Assembly: GCA_050084515.1 (NCBI GenBank)
Contig: CM114271.1
Span: 32,364,001-32,428,000, forward strand
Source of the DNA: Blasia pusilla
Lineage: Eukaryota
DNA length: 64,000 nt
Direction of reading: 5' to 3'
Shown here: positions 1 to 28,114 of the stretch, piece after piece
Layout: each line of letters starts with the position of its first letter
Position numbering within the stretch: position 1 is the stretch's first letter
The notes under the pieces: model-generated
The model's input: the letters and a program-made list of their open reading frames with translations, nothing else
What the model was told of the DNA's origin: nothing
Database searches by the model: none
Program-made: the position numbers and the translations under genes

Positions 1-3000
1 CAAGGATGATGGAGTGTATTCCATATCATGGTCTGCTCCCTAGGACAAACTGGCGCGCCTCTTGCTTCCGCTTCTCTTGAGTCTGGTCGGCTTGTTGGGG
101 TCTCTATTACCTCAGACTTGGTGGAGTTTTTTTTGCAGAGGACCTGGTCCAACCCTCTCTCCTCGCTCGCCCGGACGATTCCGCCTTTCGCCTTGAATTC
201 TCAGCCTCTTTTTGGGAAGACTTGGGCTCGGAATTCTTCGATCCCCTCGCCTTGGCTTTGAGACCCGCTGTAGATTTGTCCTTGGCGGTGACCACCTTAG
301 ACATCAACTCCGCTGTCTCGATGGATTGCTCCTCTGCATCTCCTTCGAAAAAGTCTTCAGGTTGCACAAAATTGGGGATGTCGTCCCTACCTGCGGCCAC
401 TGCATCATAGAGCAGGCGTAGATTTTTCTCGGTTATGTCCTCAGGGTCGTTGAAGTCCAGCCAGATCGGGAAATTCTCCACCTCCCAGTTGGACATGCTT
501 TGAGCCATCTCCATGTCGTACATGGAAAATGTCTCTCCATCAAGCGGAGAAGCCCACAATTTGCAGGCTGCCAATATTTTTCGCCACGTATCTACATTCT
601 TACAATGGACAAGGTACCTTAATACCATGTGTTGGGCAGCTCTTAGTCGAGATGCATCGGCCGCCTGCTCCTAAAGATCTCGCTTTTTCTTTGCGAAATC
701 CCTTTTCTTCGCCTCTATTTCTTCATCAAGGTTTGCCTGAGGGAGGATGTGATCCTTGAACATCGTCCTGAAGCCTCGGTTTTTTAAGGGCTTTTCCCGC
801 ATGTCACCAACCAAAGTTCAAAATCTTCAGCACTCTCCAAGTTTGCTTCCTCCGAAACTGGCTCTATTTTTTTCAGCTCCGCTTGGAGACCCACGAGCAT
901 GGACTTCCCGAGAAGCCGCAACGTGTCCCAAAATGACCATACACGGAGCCAGTGGGAGATCACTGGATTAGAGACACCCGGAGAATGGTATGTTGCCCTC
1001 TTTTGGGCCTCTATGCCCTCGAGACTTATTTTCATCAGTCGGATTCTCCTAAATTCCGAAATTCTAGACAAGGCAAATCAATGGACGCGGTTGAGAGACA
1101 TTTTCTCCCCAATCTGACCCTGCGGATCTTCATCCCTCTTCCGCTGGCGCTTGATTATCGCCTTCAGCTCCTTGTAGAAATCGGGGCCAAGTTCGGGGTT
1201 GAGAATGGCTATGTAGCGCTGCATCTTGCTTGCAGTGTACTTTGTAGTTGCACATACTGCAGCTTGGATGGACTAAGCACGCTCAGACATAGACACTTTC
1301 TCCCTCCGCTCCAGTTCCAATGAAGCGCTCTTCTTGGCGGCCTGTATCTTTGACCAACAAAGGATTGTCATGGCTGCATCTTGGGAAATAAATGTATTTT
1401 CCCAAGTCTTTTTTTTTATTTGAGCCCCCTCCACCGGAATCTCATTTACAAGGGCGTCGCCCAAGAACCCCTTGTACTCTGCCGGGTGCGTCGTTAGCAC
1501 TTTCTTCACCCGATCGCAATCCTGGATCCAGTGGTGGGTGACATTCCCCTCGGATACAATCCTACACATCCAAACTCAATATAAGAAATTTTGCAAGCTA
1601 CATGGGTTCCTGCAACCCGTTGGACTCCGACAGGTTGTCACACCTCATGATAGGAATGGAAGCTACGAGCTAAATTTTGCAACCCATCGAAGTCCGATGA
1701 GTTTCTTTCGACCAAAAACATCCTAAAAACAGTGGCCAGTCGAGCAACTGGTCGGAGTCCAACGAGTTGCTTTCGGCCAAAAAAATCCTAAAGTAGCGGC
1801 CAGTCGAGCAACTCGTCGAACTCCGACGAGTTGCTTTCGGCCAAAAACATCCTAAAAAGAGCGGCCAGTCAAGCAACTAGTCGGACTTTGACGAGTTTTG
1901 TTACCACTAGTTAAACAACTCATCAGAGTCCGACGATCTGCACAATCAAAATAAAGGAAGAGGAAACTTACGTGTTCATGGCATGCATGGCGATCTCCAC
2001 CATCGCCATGTGATGAGGGTATGGATGTAGCACGACTGCCTTCACGCAAAAATGCGCCTCCAATGAGTTTTTGCGCTCCTCTGCAGACTGGGTCCACGCC
2101 ATGAACCTGTGGTTTCCATCCTAGATAAAGACATACAGGTTCCGCATTCTGATCTCTCATCCAATTGAATTCCTGATCTCTCATCCTCCAGAATGTGTCG
2201 AGCGCCTCCAAGTCCTCCTCTATCACTAGCGCTTGGGTTCCATGTTCATCGTAAGGCTGAATATAGAACGGAAGGAAGTTGTCGATGTAGGATGTTGTCG
2301 CTGCCGATTGTTTCAGCTTTGCAATATCCTCGTCAGACTGAACTTAGCGGACGTACTCCATTGTCCGCAATCGGCAAAGTGGAATCCTCGGGGCATTTTG
2401 GCCCTCCATCAGTGCCATCTGCTTTAACACCTGTCACAACGGGGACAAGGTCAATAAACTATACTGAATTGCAACATAGGCCTTCACATAACTCAAAGAA
2501 CAAAGATCGTATCTTCCCGCTCAAAGATTGGGTCGGTGTCTTGGCCCGCCAACTGCTCTAGGACAGCAACTGGCTAGAAACTCGTCGATCCGATAGAGGT
2601 CGATTTCTTCCGCCGGGCTAAGAGACAAGGAAGACCACTCTCCTGCTTGTTCGGAGATGTCCACCATCTCTCGCTGGCGATCCTCATGACCTCATCGTCC
2701 GTCACTTGAACTTTGCCGGTTTCCTCAGCTGATTTTATATTGATTGTGTCCTCAGACTTCATCGGAGATATTTCCTACATCTCAACACTTTCGGTTGGAC
2801 GTGCTGGGCTTTCTTCAATGGCAGTCGCTTTTTCCCTTCAAGCTTTTGCCAATTCTGCTTTCCTCACCGACTCGTCTAGATGCTTCTTTTCACGCTTCTC
2901 CTCGGCGATCCTTTTCTTCAAGGCCTGCGACGCCTCAGCCTCTGCGTTCTGTTTTCAATCGCCTCCTTAACACGTTCTACAAGAAGCTCCTGCTTGTGCA

Positions 3001-3142
3001 TCTCCACTTCCCTTTCGCGCTCCTCGATCTCTTGCTGCCTTATCTCATTGGCCGAACGAGGCCTTGGAGATGGTGATGCAGGAGTCCTGGACTTGGGAGT
3101 GAAGCTCCCAGCCTTGCTTGCTTGAGTTTTTTTCCTCGTCAT
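1..3142 (-). pseudogene. 5' part (exons 1-2) of ParB/Srx-like + DNA methyltransferase gene, copy A
   Basis: ATG at 3142; exon 1 to 1972; GTAAG donor 1971; AG acceptor 1563-1562; motif FI*DGNHRFMAW at ~2095-2130; stops and frameshifts; homologous to copy B. Confidence 0.65.
1610..1940. repeat. ~64-bp tandem units, each carrying the 29-bp palindrome, inside intron 1
   Basis: Units start near 1695, 1759 and 1823 (CCGACGAGTTGCTTTCGGCCAAAAACATCCTAAAA...GCAACTCGTCGAACT). Confidence 0.85.
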
Positions 3143-3180
3143 TGTTCCCGAAAATGCCACCTCCTCGACAATGAAATTAC

Positions 3181-3280
3181 CTCGATGAGTTGCCTCGATG
3201 AGTCGCTCGAATCGTCTAGCGATGAGTCGCCTCGATGAATCACCTTGATGAGTCGCTCGAATCGTCTAGCGATGAGTCGC
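3181..3280. repeat. Two tandem 50-bp units built from GATGAGTCGC submotifs
   Basis: 3181-3230 and 3231-3280 are near-identical; absent from the homologous position of copy B. Confidence 0.85.
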
Positions 3281-3459: not shown

Positions 3460-4020
3460 CCATCAACCCAAAAGTCTCCGATGGGTTGGAGGCATCCGTC
3501 CTAGCCGAGATATCTGGCAACCTGTCGGAGTCCGACATGTTGCGCACCTCCGCTGTCTTGGGGGAAGAACGCGAGATACCCGCGCAACCCGTCGATGACC
3601 GACGGCTTGCACCCTTCCCTTGTCTTGGGATAACAAGGCGGGGTACCTGCGCAACTCGTCGAAGGCCGACGGGTTGCACAATTTCTTCATGTAAGCGTTC
3701 CAAGGCGAGGCACTTGCGCAACCCGTCAAAGGCCGACGGGTTGCACGCTTCCCTCATCTTGGGGTAATAGGCGGGGTACCTGCGCAACTCGTCGAAGGCC
3801 GACGGGTTGCACGCTTCCTTCATGTAAGCATTACAAGGCGAGGCACTTGCGCAACCTGTCGGAGGCCAACGGGTTGCACACTTCCCTCATCTTGGGGTAA
3901 TAGGCAAGGTACCTAGGCAACTCGTTCGTTACAGACAGGTTGCACTCCTTTCTATCCCTAGGGTAACAATGTGACAACGGATAGTTTCGAGGCAACCTCT
4001 TGCAATCCGACGGGTCACAA
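3460..4020. repeat. Tandem array of ~66-bp units with palindrome GCAACCCGTCGGA-N-(T/G)CCGACGGGTTGC
   Basis: Palindromes at about 3517, 3583, 3651, 3717, 3783, 3851, 3917 and 3992. Confidence 0.9.
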
Positions 4021-7347: not shown

Positions 7348-7348
7348 G

Positions 7349-8534
7349 AGGAGAGGAAGAGAGGAAGAGAGGAGAGAGGAGAGAGGAAACTACCTTCAAC
7401 CCAAAGAGATACTTTTTTTAAGAGAATTTCTTGTGATTTGAAGAGATTTTCTGTTGGGTTGAAGAAAGGAAACTTTTTGTGTGATCTTTTTTGCAGTTTT
7501 TTTCTCAATTTTAGGCACTCCTACACAATTTTTTTCCTCTTCCACATTTTGGAAACCCGTCAGAATCCGACGGGTTGCAAATTTGCACAAAATTTTAAAA
7601 ACTGAAAAATCATTGGAATCATAAATATGGAACAAATCACTTTTTCCATCCAAGGTCTAGAAAAAATCTATCATTTGCCCTAGGCTGAATAGAGTTCAAG
7701 CTCAAAGTGAAGGTTATGGCAAATGAAAGTATAATCTAAAACCTCATTTTGCATCCTCAAAGTGGTTTGTTTAAAATACTTTGCACTTCTTTGAGGGACA
7801 GAATTGTTTGGTGGATTCCTACTCCTACCTCCGACTCTCTTAAAACTACAAGCAATACATAGTACATGTGCTTACAAGGGAAATACCTTTTCCCACTTGT
7901 CTCTCTTTGGACAAAGTCGTCACAGGAACATGTGGGAAAGCAAAAGAAATGCACCACATACACCTCTGTGACACTTGAATTTACAGTGTTGTTCTTGATC
8001 CAATACATATTTCCTATTCCATTGCCACTCTGGATATCTTTTTTGGCGATGATTTCCATGTTTGCCTCCCGAGCTGATGCGATTCGCTTTGCTCTCTCCA
8101 CCGTTGGCCTACACATTTTTTTCTCTTTACCCCATTTCTAGACTCAGAAAAAAATACTGGATTGAGATCATCCACCTTCTCCGGGTACATATTCACATCA
8201 ATCTTGGGTTGAATACGAAATGCGAAGGTCTCTGTAATGCGAACATGCTCTGAACTTGCTCCATCTACGAGTCTGAAAGGGCACTTGTAAGATTGTCCAC
8301 TTCCTCGTGAGTGCAATTGGTACTTGCGGCAATGGGCCAAATTGTGGGGGTATTCCCTGGAGCTCCAATGGCAGCCAGATAAGACTTTCGGAAAGCGCAG
8401 GATTCATTTGGGTAGAAGAAGTACTTCAATTGATCTCCGGTCCTCGTGAAACGATCAAAGGTTTTGAGTCCCCAAAATCTAGGGAGTGGTCGTCTAGTCC
8501 TTGTACAATTCTTGTTTAGGAAAGTGCCGCATGC
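7349..8534 (-). repeat. Left inverted arm (~1.19 kb)
   Basis: Diverged reverse complement of 26935-28114, including the SWIM-coding region. Confidence 0.9.
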
Positions 8535-9100
8535 TCTCCTAATGCCATCAGATCCTGCCTAGCAAGTGGGGTCCACATCCAGGGTTGCTCCGAGATATAT
8601 GCCACCTTTTGAGGTTGCAATCCACCTCAATGACCGGAATCCCATATTGTTGAACCACCCTAGCGACCGGATGTTGCGAACTTCCAGCAACGGAGGGCTT
8701 TTGAAATAAAACATTCACTGGTTTTGGAGAAGTTATTGCATCACGGATTTGTGAGCAATCCGGGGTCTCCGAATACCTGGGCGTAATTTCCTCATCCAAA
8801 TCAATCACCGGGTTCGTTCCTCGATGCCGCCTCTTCACTTGGGTGAAGTCAAGATACTTATCTGATCTCCACGAGTCTCGCTCGAACAACTCTACCACCA
8901 TCTGTATGGGATGTCTTGAAACACGCCCACGAATATCCCCACCAACGTGGACATCTTGCTCAAGAGGAGTTCCTGCTACGCACCGATTGAAGGCTTCCAC
9001 ATAGAGTTTTTCGTATTATTGTTGAAGGACCATTGGCAAATAATTTGACCAGAAGTAGGAATTTCATCTCAATGAAAGGTTCAAATAAAGACTCTAACTA
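7757..9100 (-). pseudogene. C-terminal part of SWIM zinc-finger (MULE-type transposase-like) gene
   Basis: PTCSCDDF-x9-FPCKHMYYVL is a SWIM CxC-xn-CxH motif; upstream frames (WHISR, YFF.PNE) broken by frameshifts. Confidence 0.7.
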
Positions 9101-9624
9101 TGGTCTCAATTGACTCCAGTGCCCTTCAAGGTTTAACTTCTGTGAATATGTGGTTGACATTATGGATTGTTGACTCTTCTTGCAAAAGACATCAAATACT
9201 CATCAATAAGGGGCAAAAGAAAGGCAAAAGGAAATGCCTTTAAATGATTGCTGACTCTTCTTGCAAAAGGCATCAATACTCATCCATAAGGGGGTTTTCC
9301 ACAATAGAACAAATCACTCGTCACTCATGGTAGCCAAAGACTTTCATTTCATCATTTGATGATGTGGGCTTATGAATGGGTGCACAAAGTACACCATGGA
9401 CTACTGTGCGTTTGACAACTTGGTTTCACCATTCTCTCTCCCCCTGATAAATGTGATCACATAGCTGTCAGGAGTAAAGAGGAACTAATCAAAAAGAAAA
9501 TGTGATCAGACGAGACAACAATTGAAGCAAAAGATATTTAGCTGTTAGGAGTAAAGAGGAACTGACGCACCCATGTCCCTTCATTTAGATCCTAAATTTG
9601 AGAATCCGAGAAGCTGCACCCCTC

Positions 9625-9910
9625 CCAACCCGTCGAAATTTGACAGGTTGCAAGTCTTGCAACCCGTCGGAATCGGATGGGTTGCACCCCTTGCAAGCAA
9701 GCTCACCATAACAAAAGAAGTATTTTGAGAAGTGATTCCATTCCGATCTTTTGAGGCATTCTAGCAGGCTTCTTCACTTTTGTCTCGTTCCCCTATTATC
9801 ATCAAACCATTCTTCTCTAATTCTTCTCTTCTCTAAGACGTGTTGGATTCCTACTACTTGTCGGATTGCCATTTGGAATTCCCAACCAGTTGGATTCTCA
9901 ACCTGTCGGA
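9625..9910. repeat. Palindrome cluster
   Basis: e.g. TGCAACCCGTCGGAATCGGATGGGTTGCA near 9658. Confidence 0.75.
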
Positions 9911-10049
9911 TCCTAAATTTTACAAACACCATCATGGTTCAAAAAATTCTTGTCCTTTATTACATCCAACGGAAGCTCAGAAATGTACATTTGATCTAGT
10001 CTATGATTTCTTCAGCCTCGTCATCTACAAATTTACTCCTAACTCTCCT

Positions 10050-10637
10050 AGGTTCCTATACAAAAGGAATGTCCTGGGATACAAGTAGACGAGGATAAAA
10101 AATGTTGGGGAATTCGAGAGCCTTGGCCCTCCCCTAGGTACACCATAACGGTCCCATGTAACCTGATTTGAGTCCCACTGCCTTCCTCAGCACTAAATCT
10201 TGTACGCTCTGCAAGGTGACACCCATCCAGTATCAATATGTGCTCCGTCCTTGGAAACCAATAAATCCCTACTCCAAAACGCTTAAGTCAAGATGGGTCC
10301 TTTAGTTCTTTGAACTCACTCCTCATCGTCCGAGAGCTCTTCCAGAATTACTGTCGGCCTTGCCCTCCCGATTTTTAGAATTGTGGGAAGTGACGATGGT
10401 GTCACTATCCATGGTGGGTCTGGAACCGGAGCTCTCGGCTTTGGAGGAGAGTTGTATGCTCCCACTAGCCTGTCGTAATCTACCTTTGCCTCTTTGCAAA
10501 GGTCATAAAGTTCTTGCCTTCCCTCAAGGCAGAGAATGTTCCTGCCACTCTGCCAGGCGCCTCTGATACTCGCCCTTTGATAGGCCCACTAAGTCGAAGA
10601 CCAAGTCACCCGGCCTTGAACAGAGCTCGATGAGCAT
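10050..10637 (-). pseudogene. C-terminal part of beta-class N4C/N6A DNA methyltransferase domain (SAM-binding region); 3' limit approximate
   Basis: MLIELCSRPGDLVFDL...(frameshift)ASIRGAWQSGRNILCLEGRQELYDLCKE; continues the frame GGTEKSPALMQ from the other side of the retro insertion. Confidence 0.7.
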
Positions 10638-11213
10638 TGTCGTGCGAATCCCCATCGTCATATAACATACATCGCTGACATACCATACTCACATACATAC
10701 ATAACATAGACAAGAGTATCCACAAACGCAAGTGTACCACAACTGAAATCCGTGAAAGACCTACTGTCATAAAACACATTTACAATCACATACAATTGAG
10801 CCAAACCCACTCCACGATGGGAGAATCTAGGTCGAAGCTTGCGGGAAACACCATAGCCAAGAGCTCTACTCACTACCAAGGCTAACTCCCAACGCAACAG
10901 GCTCAACTCAAAGAATATTGTTCTTTGAGGGCAAGCCACCTTATATCCTCCAACCTAAGAGCGGGCCCTACTGGGAAAGTCATCCCCAAGTGAGTAACCC
11001 CCAACCCTATGTATGGAACCGCATCTCTACCAAGCCACTACGGTCCTACATAAGGAATGGCCTCTACCAGCACTATACTCTACGACATAATCCGTATGGT
11101 CATGACAGCTGTCGTGCAAATCCCCATCGTCATACAACATACATCGCTGACATACCATACTCACATACATACATAACATAGACGAGAGTATCCACAAAGG
11201 CAAGTGTACCACA
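10638..11213 (-). repeat. 3' terminal repeat block: A (10638-10741), B (10744-11107), GC, A (11110-11213)
   Basis: The two A copies are near-identical (~104 bp); B matches 19566-19917; junction CATGACA-GC-TGTCGTG. Confidence 0.92.
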
Positions 11214-11228
11214 ACTTGCCCCCCTAAC
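11214..11228 (-). promoter_or_regulatory. Polypurine tract
   Basis: Minus strand reads TTAGGGGGGCAAGT immediately before TGTGG, the start of the inner A unit. Confidence 0.65.
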
Positions 11229-11388
11229 TGGCGGTTAGGTCCCTCTAACTCCCAGGTAGCCCTATACATCTACTACATGCTATACACCTTCTTGGGTGCC
11301 CGAATCAGAAGGCCGGGTGCTAGGTTGCCCCATCGTTAGTCGCACATCTGTAATCCATATCATGCAGAGATCAAGTCATCTACCTCTC

Positions 11389-12830: not shown

Positions 12831-13049
12831 CGCACCACCATCTCCAACCTTAGGATCTCAAGGTGGCCATCTACCCTCGACTAGAGTAAGATATCATGTG
12901 GTCCTCCATACTAGAGTCCACCCCTTACCAACATAAAAAGGGGGATGCATGCCAACCTGGCACCATCTCCTCATCAACCTTGCCATGCCATCTAGCCCCA
13001 GTTGGATCCTCTTGGCTAGTACATGGGTTCCTACTCAACCCATCAAAGC

Positions 13050-15700: not shown

Positions 15701-16049
15701 CGCCATACAATGGATGTAGTATCCAAAGGGGATAACCCCAATCGGGCAGAAGTAGGAGTCCGTGGGGCCTCCTCTTCCTCGTGAGGTATAATGACCTCAC
15801 ACCAAGCCTCCTGCACTAGGCGTCAGCCTCTGCCGTAGTGCACCCCTGAACTCCAAAGTGGCACATCCGATGAGGATGCCTTTGCTGCAAAAATAGGGAC
15901 CTCCTCTTCCTCCTTATGCGCAGGAGAATCCATAGCGAAACATTACCCTCCAAAAGTCTCTGGCCAAGTGACTACTCCACTAAAACCAGACCCACAGATG
16001 CTAACATCTGTTGGGGAAGACCCTCATGGTCGAGCCCCGAAATAAATCT

Positions 16050-16500
16050 CACAGAACTTGGCTCATACGTCCATCCCGGATCGCCAACCTGGTCTATAAG
16101 ACGCTGTCTCACTCCAAGTAATCCATCTGAAAACCCATCGGGTACAATCATCGCTCCTCCAACTAGTACATCATACGACTCGACCGGTGATGTGACTACC
16201 GCAGATATTCCCAACCGGGAGCTATCGGTCGCATGATCCGGTCTCAACTGCATGAGAAAAATTCTCCCGTGTCATGAATTGAGACCTATCATTGGCTCCT
16301 CCAAGTGATGTTTGAATCTGGAATGGGCAAGGCTCAAGCTCGACCTCCGAATACCCAAACCAATACATGCCGCCTTTCCCAACATCAAGGTTGGGCACCG
16401 AGTCTAACAAGACTCTATCCGGTCTATACACCTATCTGTAGGACTCACCAATCAGAAGATCCCACCGGTTGTCCAACATACATACACCGGTGTAAGCCTC
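16050..16500 (-). pseudogene. Aspartic protease remnant
   Basis: RVLLDS(G) active site and YDVLVGGAM C-terminal motif. Confidence 0.75.
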
Positions 16501-16899
16501 TCACGATCAATGGCTGGCCGGGCCGGTAATGCATCCATCTTCGCTTTGCTACCCGCCAAGTAGCTTTGGTACTCAATGCTACTCGACATAGAGGGTCACT
16601 CCACCGCAACACCCTCATCCACCTCAACACGTAGCAAGAATAACACCCCACGTTCACACAACGTGGTCGCTAATCGAAATACAGGTGCTAAGTCAACTCC
16701 TAAAGCCATCGCTCCGTGGTGGAAAACAATGAGATCCCAACACTGAAGTTGCCATCCGCACATCGATCGATCTTTGCATCCGTGTCTACTACACGCGATG
16801 TAGATGCCTCAGTCCCCACTGTCGGCTCAATAGGCTGCGTAGGAACCATGGATGGAGTCCTAAGCACCTCAGACAACAAGAATGACTGGGGAAGCCTAG

Positions 16900-18460
16900 C
16901 TTGCCTCCCAGCCTCACCCCTCTGTGGGTCCAACTCCTGAGAGCACAACGTGGCTCGACGCTTTCGAGTGGCTCCTCAGAATCGCAGCCGGTGATGCCTC
17001 AACTTTTGTCCGCACTCGCCATATAAGAGAGATCATCCCCTCCATAAGAGGTGGAAGCCCTGCTCCCGAACTTGATCTATATGTCGGATACCGACCATAG
17101 TAGCCAACCGCTCCAATCGCTCAATCTCGGCGACCATAGCGACTCTGTCGAGTGGTCGGGTAGCCACCGTAGGCTCTCCAACCACTGGTCCACCTCTACC
17201 ACCCCTACCATCTCTACCACCTCGGCCTCTCGGAGCTACTCCACCAAGGCCACGGCCTGATCTCAACTCTGGATGAAGATCAAAGCAACGCTCTCGAGGA
17301 TGACCTAGTCTCCCGCAATGATCACACTGAGTTGGGGCCGACTGAGGCCCATCCTCCAAAGTCCGTCTCCCATCCTCTTGGGGACAAAACTTCCTAACAT
17401 GATCACCTCCACATGTCCAACATGACTGTCCTTGCTGCGGGGCAGCAAATGAAGGCAATGGTCTCTGCAAAAATGTCCCTCTAGGACTTGATCGAGGTCG
17501 CGTGTACCCCCACGACTCCCACTACTACTACCACCACCACTACTACGAGCGTGAGGTGGGCGGCTGAACACGAGAAGTAGTAGTTGTATCCCCTCTTGAA
17601 TGCGGATGTCACCACTCTCTCCTTCACCATGTTAAGCTCAATCTTCTCGAGATAGAGCAAACACATGGATCAATGTGGGTGAATCATCACTCATAAGAGT
17701 AGCATCACGCACCCTACGGCGCAAATCTCTCGTCCAAGATCCCATACCAAAATCGGATCGCTGATCCTCGTCACACCTGGTAATCGAAATCAAGCGTCGA
17801 TACGCTGGCGTGTATGCCTCACGAAGACTCTCACCAGTCTTTCGCTCAAAGTCTGAAGATTCCTCAACTTCTCCGTCTTCACTCCTTGATAGTTCTTCTT
17901 CAACCTCTTGAAGAACTCGCAATCGGGCTAAATGATGGTGGGGCACTAGTACCTCCACTAGAACCCCACTAGTACCTCCACTTTGGTACCCCCACTCCGG
18001 CTCGCACTGCGTACCACTCAACGTCGGGCTGGCTGGCATAGTAGGAGCACTACTACCAATACCACCATGGGTGATAGACACATAGCCTGGAGACCAATAT
18101 TGTCTCCATGCCTCAATCTCAGCAACATGGTCCTTCCTAAACTCATGGTAATCATCCATGGGTGGTCCTTCCAAGTGCTGAAACAACCCTTCCAAGCCAA
18201 GAAGGGTGTAAACAACGTGGCATTCCGCAACATCTGCATATCACACCACGTATCAAACTCCTGCATGAAGTCCTCCAACTCAATGGTACCCACTGCACCC
18301 GAGTATCGTCGTGGGCCCTTCATGGCCCCATATCCACCGTCCATGTCCCAAATCAATGGAGCGCAACACTCGATAACAACGTAGAAGACTCGGTGTTTGG
18401 AACACCTCGCCCTCCTCTTCATCAACCGTCGGAAGTGGAAAAGGTAGCCGATACCTAAAT
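16900..18460 (-). pseudogene. gag with two zinc knuckles
   Basis: CWTCGGDHVRKFC and CDHCGRLGHPRERC; GESLREAY capsid-like motif. Confidence 0.85.
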
Positions 18461-19553
18461 CCACTCCATGTGAAACCACCACTGTCCGCACCACGGTCCC
18501 CAACCAGACCACCCGACAGCTCCGTGATGACCAACGCCGATGCCGCACCACCACCAAATTACCAAGTAACGTCGATGTCGCTATACTATTCTAGCTCTAC
18601 TAGCTATGGGTGTAGGCAACCTAACTTGTCATCACCACAAGAAGTCTCCCACAATCTACTCGTCATCCCTCCAGCCTCACTACCGGTAGCACACAGGAGT
18701 AACACTACTCTGGAAATCAACGTCAACCCTAACAATGGGCGCGCAAGCAAGAAGCACGATGGAGGGGATCCAAACAGAGGAAATCCAACGACAACCCTCC
18801 AATCGCAAATGGAAATCAAGGTAACACAATCCACCAAACGTGGTGCCCTCTGAATCCACAAAACCCACCACACAATTCTAACGCAATAGCTACTCCGCCG
18901 CGGGTCGATGACGTGCTAGTCGAACGCGCAGCACCTAAAAATATCACCTGCATGGCGAGGCTACACCGTACTATGCGCTAGAGGTACATCAACCAAAAAC
19001 TTGAGATGCATAAAGCGCCTAACACATCTCCGAACAGCACCAAATGAGCTACAACAGTCTGTACACTAGCATAGTTAAGAACTCGGCGATTAAGCGTCCT
19101 CCGAGAATAGCCCAAAGATGGGTGACCAGTTATGCAAAACTCAAATCCCAAATCCTGCAAAAATTGCCTCACGCCCAAGCAAGCAAGCTTGCTTGCTTGC
19201 TCCTTGCTCCTTACTCCGCCTCTCACGCCCACTCGCCCCGAGTTGCCTCGAAGCCTCTCACCCGATCTGGATGAACTTCAACACAGCTTCCGCACTCCAA
19301 GCTCTCCACATCAGAAAACCGTCGAACACGAACCAGAATCTTCAATCCTTGATAACTTCCAACTCCCTTGACGAAAACCGGCGATCTAAAGCGCATTGGA
19401 AAGCTCTCAGCAAGGCGCTTCTTTCCCAACCAATCGCGCACCAGATTCACACCTCCAACATAGGCCACAAGCCACGAACATCCACGGCTGAGTACACAAT
19501 CAGCCCTAACAAGATCCTACTGATCTACAATCGAAGCTACCATCGATCTACTC

Positions 19554-19565
19554 CAGTTCTTTGAG
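19554..19565 (-). promoter_or_regulatory. Putative self-priming primer-binding site
   Basis: Minus strand CTCAAAGAACTG directly follows the ...TTTCA end of repeat B and is complementary to minus-strand CAGTTCTTTGAG (19740-19729), which starts 29 nt downstream of TATAA (19769-19765). Confidence 0.75.
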
Positions 19566-19917
19566 TGAAATCCGTGAAGGACCTACTGTCATAAAACACG
19601 TTTACAATCACATACAATTGAGCCAAACCCACTCCACGATGGGAGAATCTAGGTCGAAGCTTGCGGGAAACACCATAGCCAAGAGCTCTACTCACTACCA
19701 AGGCTAACTCCCAACGCAACAGGCTCAACTCAAAGAACTGACTGTTCTTTGAGGGCAAGCCACCTTATATCCCAACCCTACTGGGAAAGTCACCCCCAAG
19801 TGAGTAACCCCCAACCCTATGTATGGAACCGCATCTCTACCAAGCCACTACGGTCCTACATAAGGAATGGCCTCTACCAGCACTATACTCTACGACATAA
19901 TCCGTATGGTCATGACA
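19566..19917 (-). repeat. 5' terminal repeat B (TG...CA, contains TATA box)
   Basis: Matches 10744-11107 apart from a short deletion; no A unit at this end. Confidence 0.92.
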
Positions 19918-20274
19918 GCATTTGCATCAAGGCAGGGGACTTTTCCGTTCCTCCAAGTAAGGGGGTCCTGTCTTGCATGTAAATTCCCGGGGGAATTGTA
20001 TAAACTATCTAAGTTGTACCCATCAAAGCATGGATTGATTGGATCTAGGATCTCGAACACTTGGAAGTTGTGCTCGGGCCTTACAAAATAGTAGACAAAG
20101 GAGTGGTCCATCTGTAAAGAAGCAGGTTGGAAACAATGTCAGAAAAAAGAAAGAGCTACTTGACCGTTGGTCTACTCTCAATATGGTGACACAATGTGCA
20201 ACATGTCCATAGTGCATTCTAGTCCTTGTTGATTACCAACTCATAAGAACTTGGCCTATAGTCCTAACAGTAGA

Positions 20275-20615
20275 GGAACCTGTCGAAGTCCGACGGGTTG
20301 TTTTACAAGTGGAAGTGTTTTTTTTGCCATGAGCAACCCGTCGAAAGCCGACAGGTTGCTAGCTTAGAGTAACCTGTGGTTGGCTAAGAGCAACCCGTCG
20401 CTTTCAGACGGGTTGCATCACTCCAGAAACACAAGGAAAAGCACAAGTACTTGCAACCCGTTGGATTCCAACAGGTTACACTCACTCAATGAGACTTGTG
20501 GTAAATTTGCAACCCGTCGCTTTCAGACGGATTGCAAAACCGTAGCCACAAGCTTGTGGGATCCAATAGGTTGCATGCAGAGATGCAACCCGTTGGAGCC
20601 CGACGGGTTGAATTT
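20275..20615. repeat. Palindrome cluster in intron 2
   Basis: About six copies (near 20277, 20333, 20390, 20453, 20508, 20585). Confidence 0.85.
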
Positions 20616-22719
20616 GGATTAAGAGCACTTACCCGGACTTGACTCATCGCCAATCGGAGTGGATACTCGTTCTTGATGACCCATGATTGCACTGTCCTCC
20701 ACTTCAACGACCTCTTCACGCATTGAAGGTTGAAGAGCTTGTCCTTGGTCCCTCCAGTCAAGACCAAGAAACAACCCTGTCACTCAGATAAGCGTCTGCA
20801 AAAGAAAACAAGAGCGCGATCTGGTCGTAGGAAAGAGGGACAGTGCAGTCTAGGACAGTGTCAGATGGATTGTTGTCCCACAAGCGAAACCCAAAGGGCA
20901 AATTTTGTGATGAGGAGATCCACCGCCACCTCCTCGACCACCCCATGGACCGTCGAGAGAGCATGCACATTTCGTTGAAGGTTTTGTCCCAGCATGGTCA
21001 ATTTGTCGATGGCGAGTGTCGACTCCTGGGAACTAAAACTTTGCAGCTCATCCACAAGATGAGTGAAGTGAATGAGGATATTTGTCCTAGTCGTTTTTTC
21101 TCTATGCCTTCCCAAGGATGATGGAGTGTATTCCATATCCTTATCTCCTCCCTAGGACAAACCAAACGCCTCCCGCTTTCGCTTCTCCCGAGTCTATGGT
21201 CGGCCTATGGGGGTATCTGTTACCTCAGACTCCATTGGAGTTTTCTTGGCGGAGGATCTGGTCTGGCCCTCTCGCCCCGCTTGCTCGGACGATTCCACCT
21301 CTCGCCTTGAGGTATCAGCCTCTTTTTTGGAAGAATCGACCTCAAAATTCTTCGCTCCCCTCGCCTTTGCTTTCAAACCCGCTATAGATTTGTTCTTGGT
21401 GGTGACGACCTTGGACACCAACTCCACTGTCTTGAGGGCTTGCTCCTCCGCATCTCCTTCAAAAAATCTTTAGGATGCATAAAATTTGGAATGTCGTCCC
21501 TACCTGCGACCACTGCATCATAGACCAGACATAGATTTTTTTCGGTTATGTCCTTAGAGTCGTTGAAGTCCAACCAGATTGGGCGATTGTCAACCTCCCA
21601 ATCGGACATGCCCTATGCCATCTCCATGTCGTACATAGATAATGCCTCTCCATCAGGCGGAGAAGCCCACAATTTGCGGGCTGCCGGTATGTTTCGCCAA
21701 GCACCTGCATTCTTACAATTGATGAGGTACCTGTACACCATCCGTCGGGCTGCTCTTTGTCAAGATGAATTGGCCGCCTGCTCCTGAAGATCCCGCTTCT
21801 TCTTTGCGAAATCCCTTTTTTTGGCGTCAATTTCTTCATCCAGGTCTGCCTAAGGGAGGATGTGATTCTTGAACATCATCCTGAAGCCTGGATTTTTCGT
21901 GGGCTTGTCTCGGATGCCATCAAGCCATAGTTTGAAATCTTCTGCAGTTTCTAGGTTTGGTTCCTCCGGAACTGGCTCAATCTTCTCCAGCTCTGCTTGA
22001 AGACCCATGAGCATGGACTTCCCGAGAAGCGGCAACGCATCCCAGAATGACCATTCACTTAGCCAATGGGAGATCATTGGATCAGAAACTCCCGGAGGAT
22101 GGTGTGCCGCCTGCTTTTGGGCCTCTGTGCCCTCCACACTGATTTTCATCAGTCAAATTCTCCTAAACTCAGAAATTCCAGACAGTGCAAATTTGTGAAC
22201 GCGGTCCATAGACACTTTCTCGCCGATCCAACCCTATAGATCTTCGTCTCTCTTCCGCTGACGCTTGGTTATCGCCTTGAGCTCCTTGTAGAATTCTGGG
22301 CCAAGTTAGGGGTTCAGAATGGCAATGTATCGCTGCATCTTGCTTGCAGTGTACTTCATAGCTGCAGATATTGCAGACTTGATAAACTTTGCACGTTCAG
22401 ACGCAGACATGTTCCCCCTTCGCTCCAATTCCAATGAAGCGCTCTTCTTGGCAGCCTGGATCTTCGACCAACAAAGGATTGTGACGACTGCATCTTAGGA
22501 AATGAAGGTATTTGCCCAAGTCTTCTTTTTAATTTGAGCCCCCTTCGCCAGCATCTCATTTACCACAGCGTCGCCCAAGAACCCCTTGTACTCTGTCGGG
22601 TCCGTCGTAAGCACCTTTTTCACCTTGTCACAATCCTAGATCCAATGGTGGGTGACATTCCCCTCGGATACAATCCTGTACATCCAAACACACGCTAAGA
22701 ATTATTGCAAGCTACTAGG

Positions 22720-23385
22720 TTCCTACAACCTGTCGGACTCTAACTGGTTGCAAGACCTGGTGGTCGAAATGGTGGCATAGAGAAAAATATTGCAATCCGT
22801 CAGAGTCCGATGGGTCGCAACACCTTTTTTCTGTTACACTTATTGCAACACTCAAGCAAATTTTGAGACATAATTGCAACCCATCAGAGTCCGAAGGATT
22901 GCACTCGGATTTTGTGATTTTCTAGTCCATCCGTTTTGGTCCTTGGCTACAACCCATCGGACTCCGACGAGTTGTAAAAAATAGCATATATCAACCCGTC
23001 GAAGTCCGACAGGTTGCGCAATTTGTTGTAAAGGTGGGATTGGACGCCTAAAAGCAAGCTCTCCTACTCCGACCACCTACCTATGGGGGCAAATGCAACC
23101 CGTCAAAGTCCGACGAGTTGCTTTCGGCCAAAAATCCCAAAAATAGCGGACAGTCCTATTTTTAGGCGTCCGATGATTTGTTACCACTAGTTTAACAACT
23201 CGTTGAAGTTTGACGGTTTGCAGAACATATAAATCATGCACTCATTTTTACACCCGTCGATGGTGGACTGGTTTTGGTATCCCAGCTTTCTCTAGTGTGC
23301 TTGGCCACCAGGCAACCCGTCGGACTCCGACGGTTTGCTTGAAGCTTTCCAATTATGCAACCCGTCTGACACCGACGGGTTGAAG
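22720..23385. repeat. Palindrome cluster in intron 1
   Basis: About nine copies, e.g. GCAACCCGTCGGACTCCGACGGTTTGC near 23312. Confidence 0.85.
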
Positions 23386-24904
23386 CAATCAAAATTAAGG
23401 AAGAGGAAACTTACCCATTCATGGCATGGATTGCCATTTCCACCGTTGCCATGTGATGAGGAAAATGCGCCTCCAATGAATTTGGGCGCTCCTATGTAAA
23501 CTGGGTCCACACCATGTACTTGTGGTTTCCATCCCAGATGAAGAAGTAAAGGTTCCGCATCCAGCTAAATTGCGTCCCCTCAATCGCTCTTCTGAACTCC
23601 TGATCTCTCATCCTCCAGAATGTATCGAGCGCTTCCAAGTCCTCTTCCGTCACTAGCGCTTGGGTTCCATGTTCATCGTAAGGCTGAACATAGAACGGAG
23701 AGAAGCTGTCGACGTAGGATGTTGTCACTGCCGACTATTTCAACTTTGTAATATCCTCCTCCGAATGAATTTTGCGGACGTACTCCATGGTCCGCAATCG
23801 GCAAAGTAGAATTCTCAGGGCGTTTTGGCCCTCCATCAGTGCCATCTGCTTAACAACTTGCCACAATGGGGACCAAGTCAATAAACTACACTGTTTTGCC
23901 AATGAATTGCATCATGGGCCTTCACATAACTCAAACGTTTCTTACCCGCTCAAAGATTGGGTCGGTGTCTTGGCCGACCAACTGCTTTGGGACAATAGCT
24001 GGCAAATCCACAAGAAACTCATCGATCCGATAAAGGTCGATTTCTTCGGCCGGGATCAAAGACGAGGAAGACTGTTCTCATGCTTCTTCAGAGATGTCCA
24101 CCATCTCCACGCTTGCCGTCCTCATGACTTCATCGTCCGTCACTTGAACTTCGGCCGTTTCCTCAGCCGATTTTATATTCATGGTGTCCCCACTTTTCAT
24201 CGGGGACATTTCCTACACCTCAACACTCTGTGTTGGACGGGCAGGGCTTTCTTCAATGGCAATCACTTTTTCCCTTTGAGCTTTTGCCAATTCTGCTCTC
24301 CTCACGGACGCGTCCAGACGCTTTTTCTCACGTTTCTCGTCGGCGACTTTTCTCTTCAAGGCCTACGATGCCTCAGCCTCGACGTTTTGTTTTTTTGAGT
24401 GCCACCAGAACACGTTTTGCAAGAAGCTCCTACCTGTGCATATGTGATTCCCTTTCGCGCTCCTCTATCTCTTGCTGCCTTATCTCATTGGCCGAACGAG
24501 GCCCTAGAGATGGTGACGCAGGAGTCCTCATGGACTTGGGAGTGATGCTCCCTACCTTGATTGCTTGCATTTTTTACCTCGTCATGGTTCCCATCAATGC
24601 TTCCTCCTCGACAGTCTAGTCTCTTTCTGTGCACGAAAATTCCCTCGAATGGTCTCGCGATGAATTTCCGTGACCCTGGACCCAACTCTCTTTGCGTTTT
24701 GTGATGAAGCGCCCTCACCCTCCTCACTTCCCTTGGTATCTAGTCAGCGGCTGCGCGGAAGAGCACATGAAATCGCGAAATGAAAAACAAAAATGAGCGA
24801 AACCTCGGCTATTTATACTTTTCGAGCCGTTGAGCTGACCGTTGGGTCGCACCGTTGTACCGACGGCGACGTGTCGGCCATTATGGAACTTTGGACGTGG
24901 GAAC

Positions 24905-25840
24905 CCAGCCAACCCGACGGTCTCCGACTGGTTGCACGCTTCTCGCGTCTTTGGGATGCAGGGCGAGTTGCCCAGGAAACTTGTCCGAGACCCATGGGTT
25001 GCACGCATCCGTCCTCCTCGGGTAACAAGCCGAGCTACCCTGGCAACCCGTCGGAGACCGACAGGTTGTACGCCTCCCCCGTCTTGGGGTAACAACGCGA
25101 GATACCCGCGCAACCGATTGGAGACAGGGGGATTGCATGCCTCCCTCGTCTTGGGGTAACAACGCGAGGTGCCTGCACAACCCGTCGGAGACCGGGAGTT
25201 TGCACGCTTCCCTCGTCTTGGGATAACAAGGCAAGGTACCCGCGCAACCTGTCGGAGGCCGACGGGTTGCACGCTTCCTTCATGTTGGCGTTACAAGGCG
25301 AGGTACCCGTGCAACCAGTCGGAGGTCGACGGGTTGCACGCTTCCCTCATCTTGGGGTTACAAGGAGAGGTACCTGGGCAACCCGTCGGATACCGATAAG
25401 TTGCACTCTTTTCTCTCCCTCGGGTAACAATGTGACAAAGCAGAGTTTTGAGGAAACCGGTTGCCCTCCGACGGGTTACAAGGTCTACCCGGAGTTGGAC
25501 ACTTCCCAACATACGGCAAAATTGCACTCATGGTTTGCACGGTTAATTGAATAAGAGAAATCGACCCGAGATGCAAAAGGGAAAGCAAGGTTAGGTACCT
25601 TTGGATCCCATAACAATCACCAACGGATTGCCGTAGCAAATCCATGCGATATCTTGTGTTTGATGCTAGCAATCTCGACTCAAATCACATTGGTCAGACA
25701 AGAAGGGGATACCAACCCAACGGACTCCGATAGGTTGCAACTCGCATTGGGGCACTAACAGAAAATGGAACTCCGAGCTTCGCAACCCACGTGTCCGAGT
25801 CCCAAATTCTGCAACCCATTGGACTCCAACAAGTTCCAAC
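24905..25840. repeat. Tandem palindrome array in the divergent promoter region
   Basis: ~67-bp spaced copies at about 25043, 25109, 25177, 25243, 25311 and 25378, plus 25712 and 25810. Confidence 0.88.
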
Positions 25841-26019
25841 AGGATTGAATCCATTCCGTCAGATAATCTCACCTACCGAATAGCATATTGTCAGTCAAAT
25901 TCTGTCAGAAGAAGCTGAGTCACTATTCACTATAAATTAAACATTCTCATTCACATTCTCATTCCCATTCTCATTCTTATTCTTAATCTCAGTCTCCTCC
26001 CAGTGGAATCTTCTAGGAA

Positions 26020-27700
26020 TGGATAATTATGTGAAGCTCACTTGTGGCAGTCATCTGGCGGCCCTTCCTCAATCAGAAATAGTTCGACCGCAAGCTCGTG
26101 AGTCTTTCATACCAGTGGATTGAATTTTTCTCTCTGTTCGATTTCTTCTCCAAATTAGAACCATCTTTGTGTCCAAGGATGTTAGGGTGGACGGTACGGA
26201 GGACATAATAGGTGAGACAGTCCAGCCAGTGATTGTAGACCATAAAGTATGGAATCTCCTACCTCTAGCAAATGGTCAATACGGAGTTTACGGCTTGCCT
26301 CTGAATTCCTGTGTTTCCCAAGTAGACGGTCAAGAATTTCCTAGTGCACCGAGCTCTACGTTTGCAACTCCGAGCTCAATAGATCCGGCATTGGCTCCAA
26401 CTTCACACGTTCGTAATAATGTTGTACTTCTTGAAGACATTCCTGATGTCATCAACCTCAGTGGATCTGTCAAACACCAACCGGGCCCTCTGTCCGCCTA
26501 CTCGTTCCTCTTGCGAGTATCAGGCAATAGTTTGCTGTCGTCTCTGCCCTTGAAAATATTCAAGCATATTCTTGTCGACGAGCTGCCGCCCACGTACGAT
26601 GGTAATTGCATTTTTGAGTTGTCTCCACTTGCTGCTCCTGCTCAAAAGAAAGATGGAGGACGCTTGAAGGGTATGGACAGAAAGTTTGATTGTCATCAAT
26701 GGTGCAGGCTTCAGTGGACTAGTGCTTCAATTCCATATGGTCCTTGGATTGTCTCTGGCCGTCAATACGTTGGAGCCTTGGAGTGTAGAAGTCCTGCATG
26801 CCCGTATCTAGAGCACAACAGGCGAGTCAATACGTCGTAATTTCCCCCCAAGAATGCAGAAACTCCATATGAAGTCGGCGCGACCATACCGCCGGGGAGC
26901 CATCGATATCCTCATTGTCACGCATCCCCTTTCTGCATGCCGCACTTTCCTAAATAAGAACTGTACAAGGACTGGACGACCACTGCCTTGATTTTGGGGA
27001 CTCAAAACCTTTGATCGTTTCACGAGGACCGGGGATCAATTGAAATACTTCTTCTGCCCAAATGAATCTTGCACTTTTCGGAAGTCTTATCCGGCTGCCA
27101 TTGGAGCTCTAGGGAATATCCCCACGATTTGGCTCATTTCCGCAGGTACGAATTGCACTCAAGACGAAGTGGACAATCTTACAAGTGTCAATTTCAGACT
27201 CGTAGACGGAGGAAGTTTGGAGCATGTTCGCATTATAGAGACCTTCGTATTTTGTATTCAACCCAAGATTGATGTGAACATGTACCCGGAGAAGGGGGAT
27301 GATCTCAATCCACTAATTTTGTTTGAGTCTAGAAATGGGGTGAAGAGAAACAGAATGTGTAGGCCAACGATGGAGAGAGCAAAGTGAATTGCATCAGCTG
27401 GGGAGGCAAAAATGGAGATCATTGCCACAAAAGATGTCCAGAGTGGCAATGGAATAGGAAGGATGTATTGGGTCAGGAACAACACTGTAAATTCAAGGTG
27501 TATGTGGTGCACATCTCTTGCTTTCCCACATGTTCATGTGATGACTTTGTCCAAAGAGAGACAAGTGGGAAAAGGTATTTCCCTTGTAAGCACATGTACT
27601 ATGTGTTGCTTGTAGTTTTAAGAGAGTCCAAGGTAGGAGTAGGAATCCACCAACCATTCTGTCCCTCAAAGAAGTGCAAAGTATTTTAAACAAACCGCTT
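26020..27700 (+). pseudogene. Internally deleted transposase-like gene: GCM/WRKY-like Zn domain joined to SWIM C-terminus
   Basis: GMDRKFDCHQW...GALECRSPACPY; abrupt switch near 26935 into the arm sequence; PTCSCDDF...PCKHMYYV. Confidence 0.55.
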
Positions 27701-28114
27701 TGAGGATGCAAAATGAGGTTTTAGATTGTACTTTCATTTTTCGAGAACCTTCACTTTGAGCTTGAACTCTATTCAGCCCAGGGCAAATGATAGATTTTTT
27801 CCAGATCTTGGATGGAAAAAGTGATTGGTTCCACACTTATGATTCCACTGATTTTTCAATTTTCTAAATTTTGTGCAATTTGCAACTCGTCGGACTCAGA
27901 TGGGTTGCCAAAATGTGGAAGAGGAAAAAGAAAACTGTGGGAATGCTAAAGAACTGAGCAGAAAAGTGCAAAAAAATTCACACAAAAAGTTTCCTCTCTT
28001 CAACCCAACGGAAAAATTCTTCAAATCACAGGAAACTCTCTTCAAATAAAAGTATCTCTTTTGGTTGAAGGTAGTTTCCTCTCTCCTCTCTCCTCTCTCC
28101 TCTCTTCCTCTCCT
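26935..28114 (+). repeat. Right inverted arm
   Basis: Reverse complement of 7349-8534. Confidence 0.9.

What the first reader, a model, noticed from the sequence alone, without database searches (positions are those of the whole stretch)
1610..27910. About 40-45 copies of a 29-bp palindrome confined to non-coding parts of the ParB-MTase element
Seen: consensus TGCAACCCGTCGGA-N-TCCGACGGGTTGCA (14-bp arms, 1-bp spacer). By-eye count is ~40-45, located in both introns, the divergent promoter, downstream of the MTase gene and the arms, and not noticed in exons or outside this element. Known: ParB dimers load on palindromic parS sites; Arabidopsis VANDAL Mutator elements carry non-coding motif arrays bound by their own VANC anti-silencing protein. 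Inference: these are self-recognition sites for the ParB-like/MTase protein or the GCM-like domain, forming a sequence-specific self-marking or anti-silencing system.
Basis: partly seen in the sequence, partly recalled or inferred. Interest (0 to 1): 0.85.

Follow-up and report, generated by a model that had tools for sequence, protein, structure and literature searches.

The report
Palindrome-studded plant transposon with pseudo-methylase
A jumping gene in a moss-like plant has filled its non-coding DNA with dozens of copies of one mirror-image sequence, probably docking sites for a protein it carries (part bacterial DNA clamp, part probably disabled methylase) that may help it escape silencing.

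Summary
In detail: 45 copies at up to 9 mismatches, all in 1611-27909 (shuffles give at most 2), none in an exon. They belong to a high-copy ~12.7-kb Mutator DNA transposon family with 9-11-bp target duplications and only short imperfect terminal repeats; the host is probably a liverwort. The window holds two copies plus an inverted end fragment, not one element with arms. The element carries a transposase and a divergent four-exon gene: ParB-like fold, helical domain, beta-class amino-methyltransferase fold.

Across fetched copies 2 of 1154 palindromes lie in exons (585 expected). The 1-bp centre is fixed and the flanks are mostly unrelated. The consensus is identical in five subfamilies, one with saturated synonymous sites, and non-autonomous miniatures keep it. 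This fits a site for a two-fold symmetric protein.

The methyltransferase lacks DPPY/SPPY (D-L-P-S) yet is under purifying selection (dN/dS 0.06-0.14), so self-methylation is doubtful. Best reading: the accessory protein binds the palindromes and shields or activates the element, like VANDAL/VANC; the transposase is the main rival binder. Binding is not shown. Red-algal Plavaka elements with ParB and methylase genes plus inverted-repeat arrays are published, so this is a new land-plant variant.

The parts
1..1560 (-). Copy 1, gene A exon 3 (helical domain; the rest of the gene continues upstream of the window)
1611..1942 (.). Copy 1, intron 2: 6 palindromes, including a 65-bp tandem array
1974..2430 (-). 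Copy 1, gene A exon 2 (ParB-like, DGNH motif)
2512..3142 (-). Copy 1, gene A exon 1 (charged, low-complexity N-terminus)
3462..4019 (.). Copy 1, promoter region: 9 palindromes, 67-bp tandem array; the copy breaks off soon after
7348..9012 (-). Inverted right-end fragment of the element (transposase exon 2 at 7760-9012, one palindrome at 7551); not a family terminal repeat
9013..10318 (.). Copy 2, left non-coding part (true left terminus missing), palindromes at 9624 and 9658
10319..10638 (-). Copy 2, gene A exon 4, 3' part (SAM-binding half of the methyltransferase-like domain)
10639..19916 (-). LTR retroelement inserted into exon 4 (4-5-bp duplication); carries no palindrome
19917..20111 (-). 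Copy 2, gene A exon 4, 5' part
20274..20612 (.). Copy 2, intron 3: 6 palindromes
20633..22674 (-). Copy 2, gene A exon 3 (helical domain, linker, N-half of methyltransferase-like domain); broken by stops and frameshifts
22724..23384 (.). Copy 2, intron 2: 9 palindromes
23418..23857 (-). Copy 2, gene A exon 2 (ParB-like)
23940..24585 (-). Copy 2, gene A exon 1
24903..25838 (.). Copy 2, divergent promoter: 11 palindromes, 67-bp array at 24903-25410
26019..26936 (+). Copy 2, transposase exon 1, 5' part (WRKY-GCM1-like zinc finger); catalytic part and intron deleted in this copy
26935..27700 (+). Copy 2, transposase exon 2, 3' part (SWIM)
27881..28120 (.). Copy 2, right subterminal palindrome and right terminus with (CCTCTCTT)-type repeats

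Best explanation
The palindromes are recognition sites for the element's own accessory protein (gene A, about 1220 aa: ParB-like N-domain, helical domain, methyltransferase-fold domain). Shown here: the sites are family-specific, non-coding, fixed in geometry and conserved, and all domains of gene A were under purifying selection while the family was multiplying. Inferred: a gene A dimer binds the two 13-bp half-sites, the high site density concentrates it along its own element and on non-autonomous miniatures, and it keeps the element expressible or mobile in a host that methylates the family at CG and CHG. The methyltransferase-fold domain probably does not methylate; it more likely binds or flips bases, or recruits or blocks host chromatin factors. 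It works like VANDAL/VANC anti-silencing, with unrelated parts that look prokaryote-derived.
For: 2 of 1154 palindromes in exon-aligned sequence against 585 expected. 1-bp centre in 1252 hits against at most 50 for any other spacing; flanks of copies in different regions are 0.22-0.34 identical while the motif is 0.66-0.76; information content falls to 0.2 bit or less outside the 29 bp. Same consensus in five subfamilies although gene A synonymous sites are saturated towards the most distant and intron-2 spacers do not align between distant subfamilies. 21 of 22 miniatures carry 1-5 palindromes in A/T-rich interiors that do not align to the autonomous element. dN/dS 0.03-0.09 ParB exon, 0.08-0.15 helical, 0.06-0.14 methyltransferase-like. 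Folds: amino-methyltransferases Z 17-18.5, rmsd 3.0-3.6 over ~200-217 residues; ParB/sulfiredoxin family Z 5.2-6.0 over residues 4-177. Red-algal Plavaka elements, with a different transposase superfamily, also pair a ParB-domain accessory gene with inverted-repeat arrays (10.1101/2025.02.11.637652, section 8), which points to the ParB protein rather than the Mutator transposase. CpG and CHG positions generally decay about 2-4 times faster than others in family copies, indicating host methylation.
Against: No binding or methylation data. The ParB match is middling, in a range the tool warns can be a common arrangement, and no helix-turn-helix was demonstrated. The half-site shares CGGGT with the GCM site ATGCGGGT (PMC8859918), the transposase has a WRKY-GCM1-like finger, and a Mutator transposase alone can hypomethylate and activate its family (10.64898/2026.08.24.746577, section 7). 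The motif did not change while gene A's helical domain diverged by dN 0.03-0.14, unlike the fast VANC-motif co-evolution. After insertion, motifs decay no slower than spacers, so constraint is inferred only between subfamilies. Gene A RNA is very low (depth about 0-11 on exons 1-3, 11-31 near exon 4) and no spliced joint was among the rows shown.
Confidence: 0.5

Rival explanations
1. The sites are bound by the transposase's WRKY-GCM1-like zinc finger, for end synapsis or self-activation; gene A does something else.
For: N-terminal finger resembles GCM/FAR1/AFT clusters at 0.77-0.90 (a lead only). Half-site shares CGGGT with the GCM consensus. The finger is nearly invariant among subfamilies (1-6 nonsynonymous differences), matching an invariant motif. 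AtMu1 transposase binds its own and non-autonomous elements and hypomethylates them. Mutator subterminal repeats are common (PMC5225508). Miniatures keep the sites.
Against: AtMu1 and Muta1 sites are at the termini; here most sites lie kilobases inside, in introns and the promoter, and the first is ~870 bp from the left end in a full copy. One 306-bp miniature with a 9-bp duplication (1 mismatch) has no full palindrome. Plavaka elements have inverted-repeat arrays with ParB but a non-Mutator transposase. Pfam GCM was not hit.
Confidence: 0.22
2. Gene A is an active amino-methyltransferase with an unusual active site that writes 6mA or 4mC on or near the palindromes.
For: Whole beta-class fold kept. 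First Asp and second Pro of motif IV conserved from liverworts to ferns, and a DFAGGWG-type SAM motif in most Riccia sorocarpa homologs. Purifying selection on the domain. Liverworts have an active 4mC enzyme of this class (10.1101/2021.02.12.428880).
Against: 0 of 37 properly aligned rows have the aromatic fourth residue or the PP pair (4 misaligned or partial rows left out). In this genome 1 of 52 copies reads D-L-P-F and none reads (D/N/S)PP(Y/F/W); motif I reads DLVGLSG-type instead of DPFxGSG. SPPY to APPA abolishes activity in the rotifer enzyme (PMC8885841).
Confidence: 0.12
3. The palindromes act as RNA hairpins (small-RNA source, decoy or splicing aid) or are a neutrally spreading micro-repeat amplified by slippage.
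For: Intron 3 RNA folds far better than shuffles (z -9.9). Many copies lie in tandem arrays with units near 34, 54-57, 64-67 and 75 bp. No slower decay than spacers after insertion.
Against: A hairpin would tolerate loop-length change, yet the 1-bp centre is fixed. Inner arm positions show almost no compensatory change beyond shuffles; excess is mainly at positions 1 and 7, where shared ancestry and symmetric CHG decay may explain it. Sites occur in the intergenic promoter and in miniatures. Neutral spread does not explain an unchanged CpG-rich consensus across saturated synonymous divergence. No Rfam match.
Confidence: 0.08
4. The sites recruit a host transcription or chromatin factor; neither element protein binds them.
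For: An invariant motif despite gene A divergence fits a fixed host binder.
Against: 24 of 24 sampled perfect sites derive from this family, none from a host promoter (sample limited to contig C1). A 27-bp conserved palindrome is long for a plant transcription-factor site (general knowledge).
Confidence: 0.08

Closest known systems
Red-algal Plavaka accessory gene (PAG) cassette, also on Chondrus Mutator, Zisupton and Fanzor elements (10.1101/2025.02.11.637652; section 8 and passages read, supplements not seen)
   Same: DNA transposon carrying a ParB-domain accessory gene, a PF01555 methylase gene and arrays of inverted repeats; the authors propose self-binding and self-modification; most copies decayed and weakly expressed.
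   Different: There ParB is fused to a 2OG-oxygenase, the methylase to SET, in separate genes, with arrays next to PAG3. Here ParB-like and methyltransferase-like domains are in one protein, no SET or 2OG domain was detected, the catalytic motif is degenerate, the palindrome is spread over introns, promoter, ends and miniatures, and the host is a land plant. Homology to PAG2/PAG3 was not tested.
Arabidopsis VANDAL Mutator elements and VANC anti-silencing proteins (PMC5735166, passages read)
   Same: Mutator superfamily; accessory gene; family-specific motif dense in introns, intergenic and terminal non-coding DNA, partly in tandem repeats, absent from exons.
   Different: VANC21's motif is a 9-bp sequence arrayed in one orientation that differs between families; here a 27-29-bp palindrome is unchanged across five subfamilies. 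Gene A has ParB-like and methyltransferase folds, not a VANC domain. VANC function is proven; this one is not.
AtMu1 transposase and Spm TnpA as sequence-specific activators (10.64898/2026.08.24.746577; abstract, section 7, passages)
   Same: Transposon proteins bind motifs shared with non-autonomous derivatives and lower their methylation.
   Different: Their sites and effects are at the termini; AtMu1 has no accessory gene.
Beta-class amino-methyltransferases (CcrM, M.BceJIV, M.PvuII; eukaryotic N4CMT and MpDN4MT1)
   Same: Same permuted fold, Z 16-18.5; PF01555 hits.
   Different: No (D/N/S)PP(Y/F/W); transposon-borne and fused to a ParB-like domain; N4CMT and MpDN4MT1 are host genes with SPPY.
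Bacterial ParB/KorB with parS/operator palindromes; phage ParB-terminase loci with methylases (PMC4738411, passages)
   Same: ParB/sulfiredoxin-like N-domain with a GxxR-like DGNHR; repeated palindromic sites; ParB-methylase association known in phages.
   Different: No ParA; no helix-turn-helix shown; longer palindrome; eukaryotic transposon with introns. No sequence match in phage records and no exact motif in viral or prokaryote collections.

Membership tests
Mutator (MULE) superfamily | 8-11-bp target site duplication | tested here: met
Mutator (MULE) superfamily | DDE core with His motif and C-terminal SWIM | tested here: met
   By-eye motif assignment on the open family consensus: D in 15 of 15, D in 15 of 17, E in 13 of 18 copies; SWIM E 0.018, below the curated cut-off. 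No Pfam MULE hit, so this rests on motif order.
Mutator (MULE) superfamily | N-terminal WRKY-GCM1 DNA-binding domain | tested here: inconclusive
   Atlas neighbours GCM, FAR1, AFT, ALS2CR8 at 0.77-0.90; Pfam GCM search blank with a silent control; single-sequence model unusable, pLDDT 31.
Mutator (MULE) superfamily | Long terminal inverted repeats (classical MULE) | tested here: not met
   Ends are short and imperfect, followed by GA-rich repeats; the element is of the non-TIR type.
VANDAL/VANC system | Family-specific motif dense in non-coding parts, partly tandem | tested here: met
VANDAL/VANC system | Accessory protein of the VANC family (DUF1985, recalled) | tested here: not met
   No such Pfam hit in gene A pieces or homologs; the folds are ParB-like and methyltransferase.
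VANDAL/VANC system | Motif differs between related families | tested here: not met
VANDAL/VANC system | Accessory protein binds the motif and causes hypomethylation in trans | not testable with these tools
   Needs DAP-seq/ChIP and methylomes.
Beta-class N4/N6 DNA methyltransferase | Permuted Rossmann fold, motif IV before motif I | tested here: met
   (model of a Riccia sorocarpa homolog, pLDDT 76).
Beta-class N4/N6 DNA methyltransferase | Catalytic (D/N/S)PP(Y/F/W) | tested here: not met
   0 of 37 aligned rows; 0 of 52 own-genome copies, one D-L-P-F.
Beta-class N4/N6 DNA methyltransferase | SAM-binding FxGxG | tested here: inconclusive
   DLVGLSG-type in this family; DFAGGWG-type in most Riccia sorocarpa homologs.
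Beta-class N4/N6 DNA methyltransferase | Methyl transfer to DNA | not testable with these tools
   Needs biochemistry or long-read kinetics.
ParB/parS | ParB/sulfiredoxin N-domain with GxxR | tested here: inconclusive
   Four ParB/sulfiredoxin structures align to residues 4-177 at Z 5.2-6.0, rmsd 3.0-3.6 over 89-105 residues; DGNHR in 30 of 61 copies, DGNH plus another residue in most others; no Pfam or PHROG ParB hit.
ParB/parS | Helix-turn-helix that reads the palindrome | tested here: inconclusive
   A helical domain follows the ParB-like fold but was not folded or searched alone.
ParB/parS | CTP-dependent clamping and spreading | not testable with these tools
   Needs biochemistry.
Red-algal PAG cassette | ParB-domain gene, PF01555 gene and inverted-repeat arrays on a DNA transposon | tested here: met
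Red-algal PAG cassette | SET and 2OG-oxygenase domains, three separate genes | tested here: not met
   One accessory gene; no SET or 2OG hit in Pfam scans.
Red-algal PAG cassette | Sequence homology to PAG2/PAG3 | not tested

The most novel reading that the evidence does not exclude
A eukaryotic transposon runs a parS/ParB-like system: the accessory protein loads as a nucleotide-gated clamp at dozens of palindromes, spreads along its own element, and uses a catalytically dead base-flipping methyltransferase domain to shield it from host 5mC silencing (or to steer new insertions into motif-rich DNA). The lineage would be shared by liverworts and ferns.
Probability: 0.15. Interest if true: 0.9.

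Novelty: new variant of a known kind. Interest (0 to 1): 0.64.

Why it matters
Experimentally characterised transposon self-activation systems (VANC, TnpA, AtMu1) come from flowering plants in the papers read. The red-algal ParB/methylase cassette is a hypothesis without a defined site. This family offers an unusually long, sharply defined candidate site, a candidate protein under strong selection, natural miniatures as reporters, and long annotated homologs in Riccia sorocarpa, so the hypothesis becomes directly testable in a land plant. A conserved pseudo-methyltransferase on a transposon would be a new use of that fold, and a 27-bp-specific binder could serve as an epigenome-editing part. 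The family may make up several percent of this genome (rough estimate 13-59 Mb).

Tried and rejected
Long terminal inverted repeats (7348-9012 versus 26935-28113): rejected, other copies have a different left end. A Helitron family sharing the motif: rejected; the array in a Helitron helicase region is a ~670-bp piece of this family's intron 2, absent at the matching site of the closest Helitron copy. Slower decay of motifs than spacers within dead copies: not seen. A second, distant family with a different palindrome in this genome: none found; nine loci chosen from a search with a distant homolog were all the same family. DNA of related elements from other species: two metagenome scans found none. 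Word-based protein search with the exon-3 product: no hit at similar length; Atlas blank for the helical domain. Transposase fold from one sequence: unusable. Pfam GCM search uninformative. Exact motif absent from viral and prokaryote collections; no phage protein match; no Rfam match. No RNA holder was listed in the run index; raw RNA reads were laid instead. The homolog tally used a pattern that could not find aromatic variants and is not used; one search is. Earlier scan notes: none found.

Full report
1. Observation. The 29-bp palindrome is real. The window has 7 copies at up to 3 mismatches and 45 at up to 9, all within 1611-27909; 50 shuffles give at most 2. Exon mapping puts all 45 outside coding sequence. 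The genome (390 Mb, 26 contigs) holds 522 exact 27-mers, against 0 for the reversed control.

2. What carries it. The region belongs to a dispersed family: 43 matches were listed from 40 scored of 2522 candidates, mostly 84-90% identical. Full copies are about 12.7 kb. Ends are short, imperfect inverted repeats followed by GA-rich repeats. One full copy has a 9-bp target duplication. Miniatures of 306-734 bp share the ends; 17 of 22 have 9-11-bp duplications with at most one mismatch. Family consensus frames are open. Gene B has two exons and reads, by motif order, as a Mutator transposase: cysteine/histidine finger, D-D-H-E core, SWIM. Its finger falls among WRKY-GCM1 clusters in the Atlas, a lead only. 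Gene A is divergent, has four exons and about 1220 codons. The window holds the upstream half of one copy (it continues left of the window), an inverted right-end fragment (7348-9012), and a second copy with an LTR retroelement in exon 4 and a deletion in the transposase. Both window copies are broken. The host is probably a liverwort: the named homologs are mostly Riccia, and eight contigs of 29-69 Mb dominate. This is an inference.

3. Is the motif confined to the family? I took 24 perfect sites from the first 50 listed, all on contig C1, so the sample is not random. With motifs masked in the reference, 21 lie in element copies, 2 in miniatures, and 1 in a Helitron helicase region. That last array is a ~670-bp piece of intron 2 from a distant subfamily, missing at the matching site of the closest Helitron. 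So 24 of 24 derive from the family. Over 34 fetched regions including the window, 2 of 1154 palindromes lie in exon-aligned sequence, where 585 are expected; 13 copies more than 1.5 kb from an exon hit were left out.

4. It behaves like a protein-binding site. Information content is confined to the 29 bp (1084 instances). The centre is 1 bp in 1252 hits, against at most 50 for other spacings. Flanks of copies in different regions are at chance identity, except within the 67-bp promoter array and one adjacent pair. A tree of 55 copies resolves subfamilies. In five of them the majority motif is identical, although gene A synonymous sites are saturated towards the most distant one and intron-2 spacers no longer align between distant subfamilies. 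Miniatures carry 1-5 palindromes in A/T-rich interiors unrelated to the autonomous interior; one of 22 has none. Against this reading: after insertion, motifs decay as fast as spacers and exons, with CpG and CHG positions generally about 2-4 times faster. That shows host methylation and dead copies, so constraint is inferred only between master lineages. Intron RNA folds strongly, but a fixed 1-bp centre and the near absence of compensatory change at inner positions favour double-stranded DNA recognition.

5. Gene A. An unindexed search found 36 relatives at 24-34% identity. Of 20 looked up, 10 are Riccia sorocarpa, 1 R. fluitans, 2 Adiantum ferns and 7 unnamed contigs; 51 hits in two further searches are all R. 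sorocarpa. One R. sorocarpa model fuses gene A sequence to the same transposase N-terminus (P0025), suggesting the same gene pair there. A model of 1019 residues of homolog P0041 (66 sequences, pLDDT 76) matches beta-class amino-methyltransferases at its C-terminus (Z 17-18.5) and, more weakly, KorB, PadC, sulfiredoxin and a pNOB8-type ParB at residues 4-177 (Z 5.2-6.0). Four genomic PF01555 hits over the cut-off are all element copies. The catalytic motif is D-[LMFI]-P-[STKL]-G or a close variant; 0 of 37 aligned rows have the aromatic residue (4 misaligned rows left out), and 0 of 52 copies here read (D/N/S)PP(Y/F/W). The SAM motif is DLVGLSG-type here and DFAGGWG-type in R. sorocarpa. Yet dN/dS is 0.06-0.14 in this domain, 0.03-0.09 in the ParB exon and 0.08-0.15 in the helical domain. 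It is a conserved, probably non-catalytic or altered domain. Three RNA runs give low, mostly sense reads on gene A, and no spliced joint was among the rows shown; 349 joints were not displayed. DNA depth suggests roughly 150 copies within 85% of the copy used (my arithmetic). Scaling 8 perfect among 1139 motifs to 522 gives about 74,000 motifs (38,000-172,000), a rough figure.

6. Mechanism. Shown: family specificity, exon exclusion, fixed geometry, conservation, selection on gene A, loss of the canonical catalytic motif. Inferred: a two-fold symmetric element protein binds the sites (about 0.85); it is gene A rather than the transposase (about 0.6 against 0.25); the outcome is protection from silencing or activation without methyl transfer (0.5 for the full best reading). 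The main reason to prefer gene A is that red-algal Plavaka elements pair ParB with inverted-repeat arrays under a different transposase, and that known transposase sites are terminal. The main reasons for the rival are the shared CGGGT with the GCM site and a nearly invariant finger.

7. Relation to what is known. It works like VANDAL/VANC in layout but is not a member: different protein, palindromic and stable motif. It is closest in parts to the red-algal PAG cassette, where the same self-binding idea is already proposed. It is not an N4CMT/MpDN4MT1-type enzyme (no SPPY). I found no description of this element or protein family in land plants in ten library searches. The library lacks most subscription papers and Repbase, and the Bostrychia supplementary table of PAG-bearing elements and its reference 46 were not seen; they may bear on novelty. 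Papers seen: 10.1101/2025.02.11.637652 (section 8, passages); 10.64898/2026.08.24.746577 (abstract, section 7, passages); PMC5735166, PMC4738411, PMC5225508, PMC1702500, PMC8885841, 10.1101/2021.02.12.428880 (passages); PMC8859918 (one passage). Recalled, from no call: that ParB reads parS with a helix-turn-helix and clamps with CTP, that VANC carries DUF1985, and the Mutator and GCM motif patterns used for by-eye assignment.

8. Verdict. A real, family-wide feature; new variant of a known kind; interest 0.64. The boldest reading not excluded, a ParB-like clamp with a dead methylase shielding its own transposon, has probability about 0.15 and would merit 0.9.

Noticed in passing
Family-wide, e.g. 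L041, L044, L026+L027, L123-L126: Between subfamilies, third codon positions differ by 0.19-0.42 in gene A but only 0.06-0.19 in the physically linked transposase (within subfamily 0.08-0.15 versus 0.05-0.14). This suggests module swapping, homogenisation of the transposase half, or faster mutation in gene A. Unexplained.
   Followed up: partly
L089-L108: 5 of 19 miniature elements are inserted inside copies of their own family, one into a palindrome; P about 0.006 if the family is 6.5% of the genome, 0.14 if 15%. Possible self-targeting or shared heterochromatin bias.
   Followed up: partly
G000:C1 8-12 Mb and 22-24.5 Mb; contigs C9-C13: Copies cluster and nest, and the small contigs are rich in them; relation to centromeres not examined.
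   Followed up: no
L072-L073 (G000:C1 about 16.413-16.414 Mb): A ~670-bp intron-2 fragment with 10 palindromes sits inside a Helitron helicase region, with an empty site in a 90%-identical Helitron on C5.
   Followed up: yes
window 10639-19916: Decayed gypsy-like LTR retroelement with a C-terminal PHD-like finger (11389-12048) inserted in gene A exon 4; related LTR pieces at 5740-6170 and further retroelement remains across 28100-51000.
   Followed up: no
window 52310-55091 +: Two overlapping long frames resembling a non-LTR reverse transcriptase with a restriction-like endonuclease tail (label recalled, not tested).
   Followed up: no
L072:7371-8483 -: A host-like UBA/UAS (UBX family) reading frame next to the Helitron (label recalled, not tested).
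   Followed up: no
Miniature right ends, e.g. L090: Several half-sites of the palindrome lie in the right subterminal region without a partner half.
   Followed up: no
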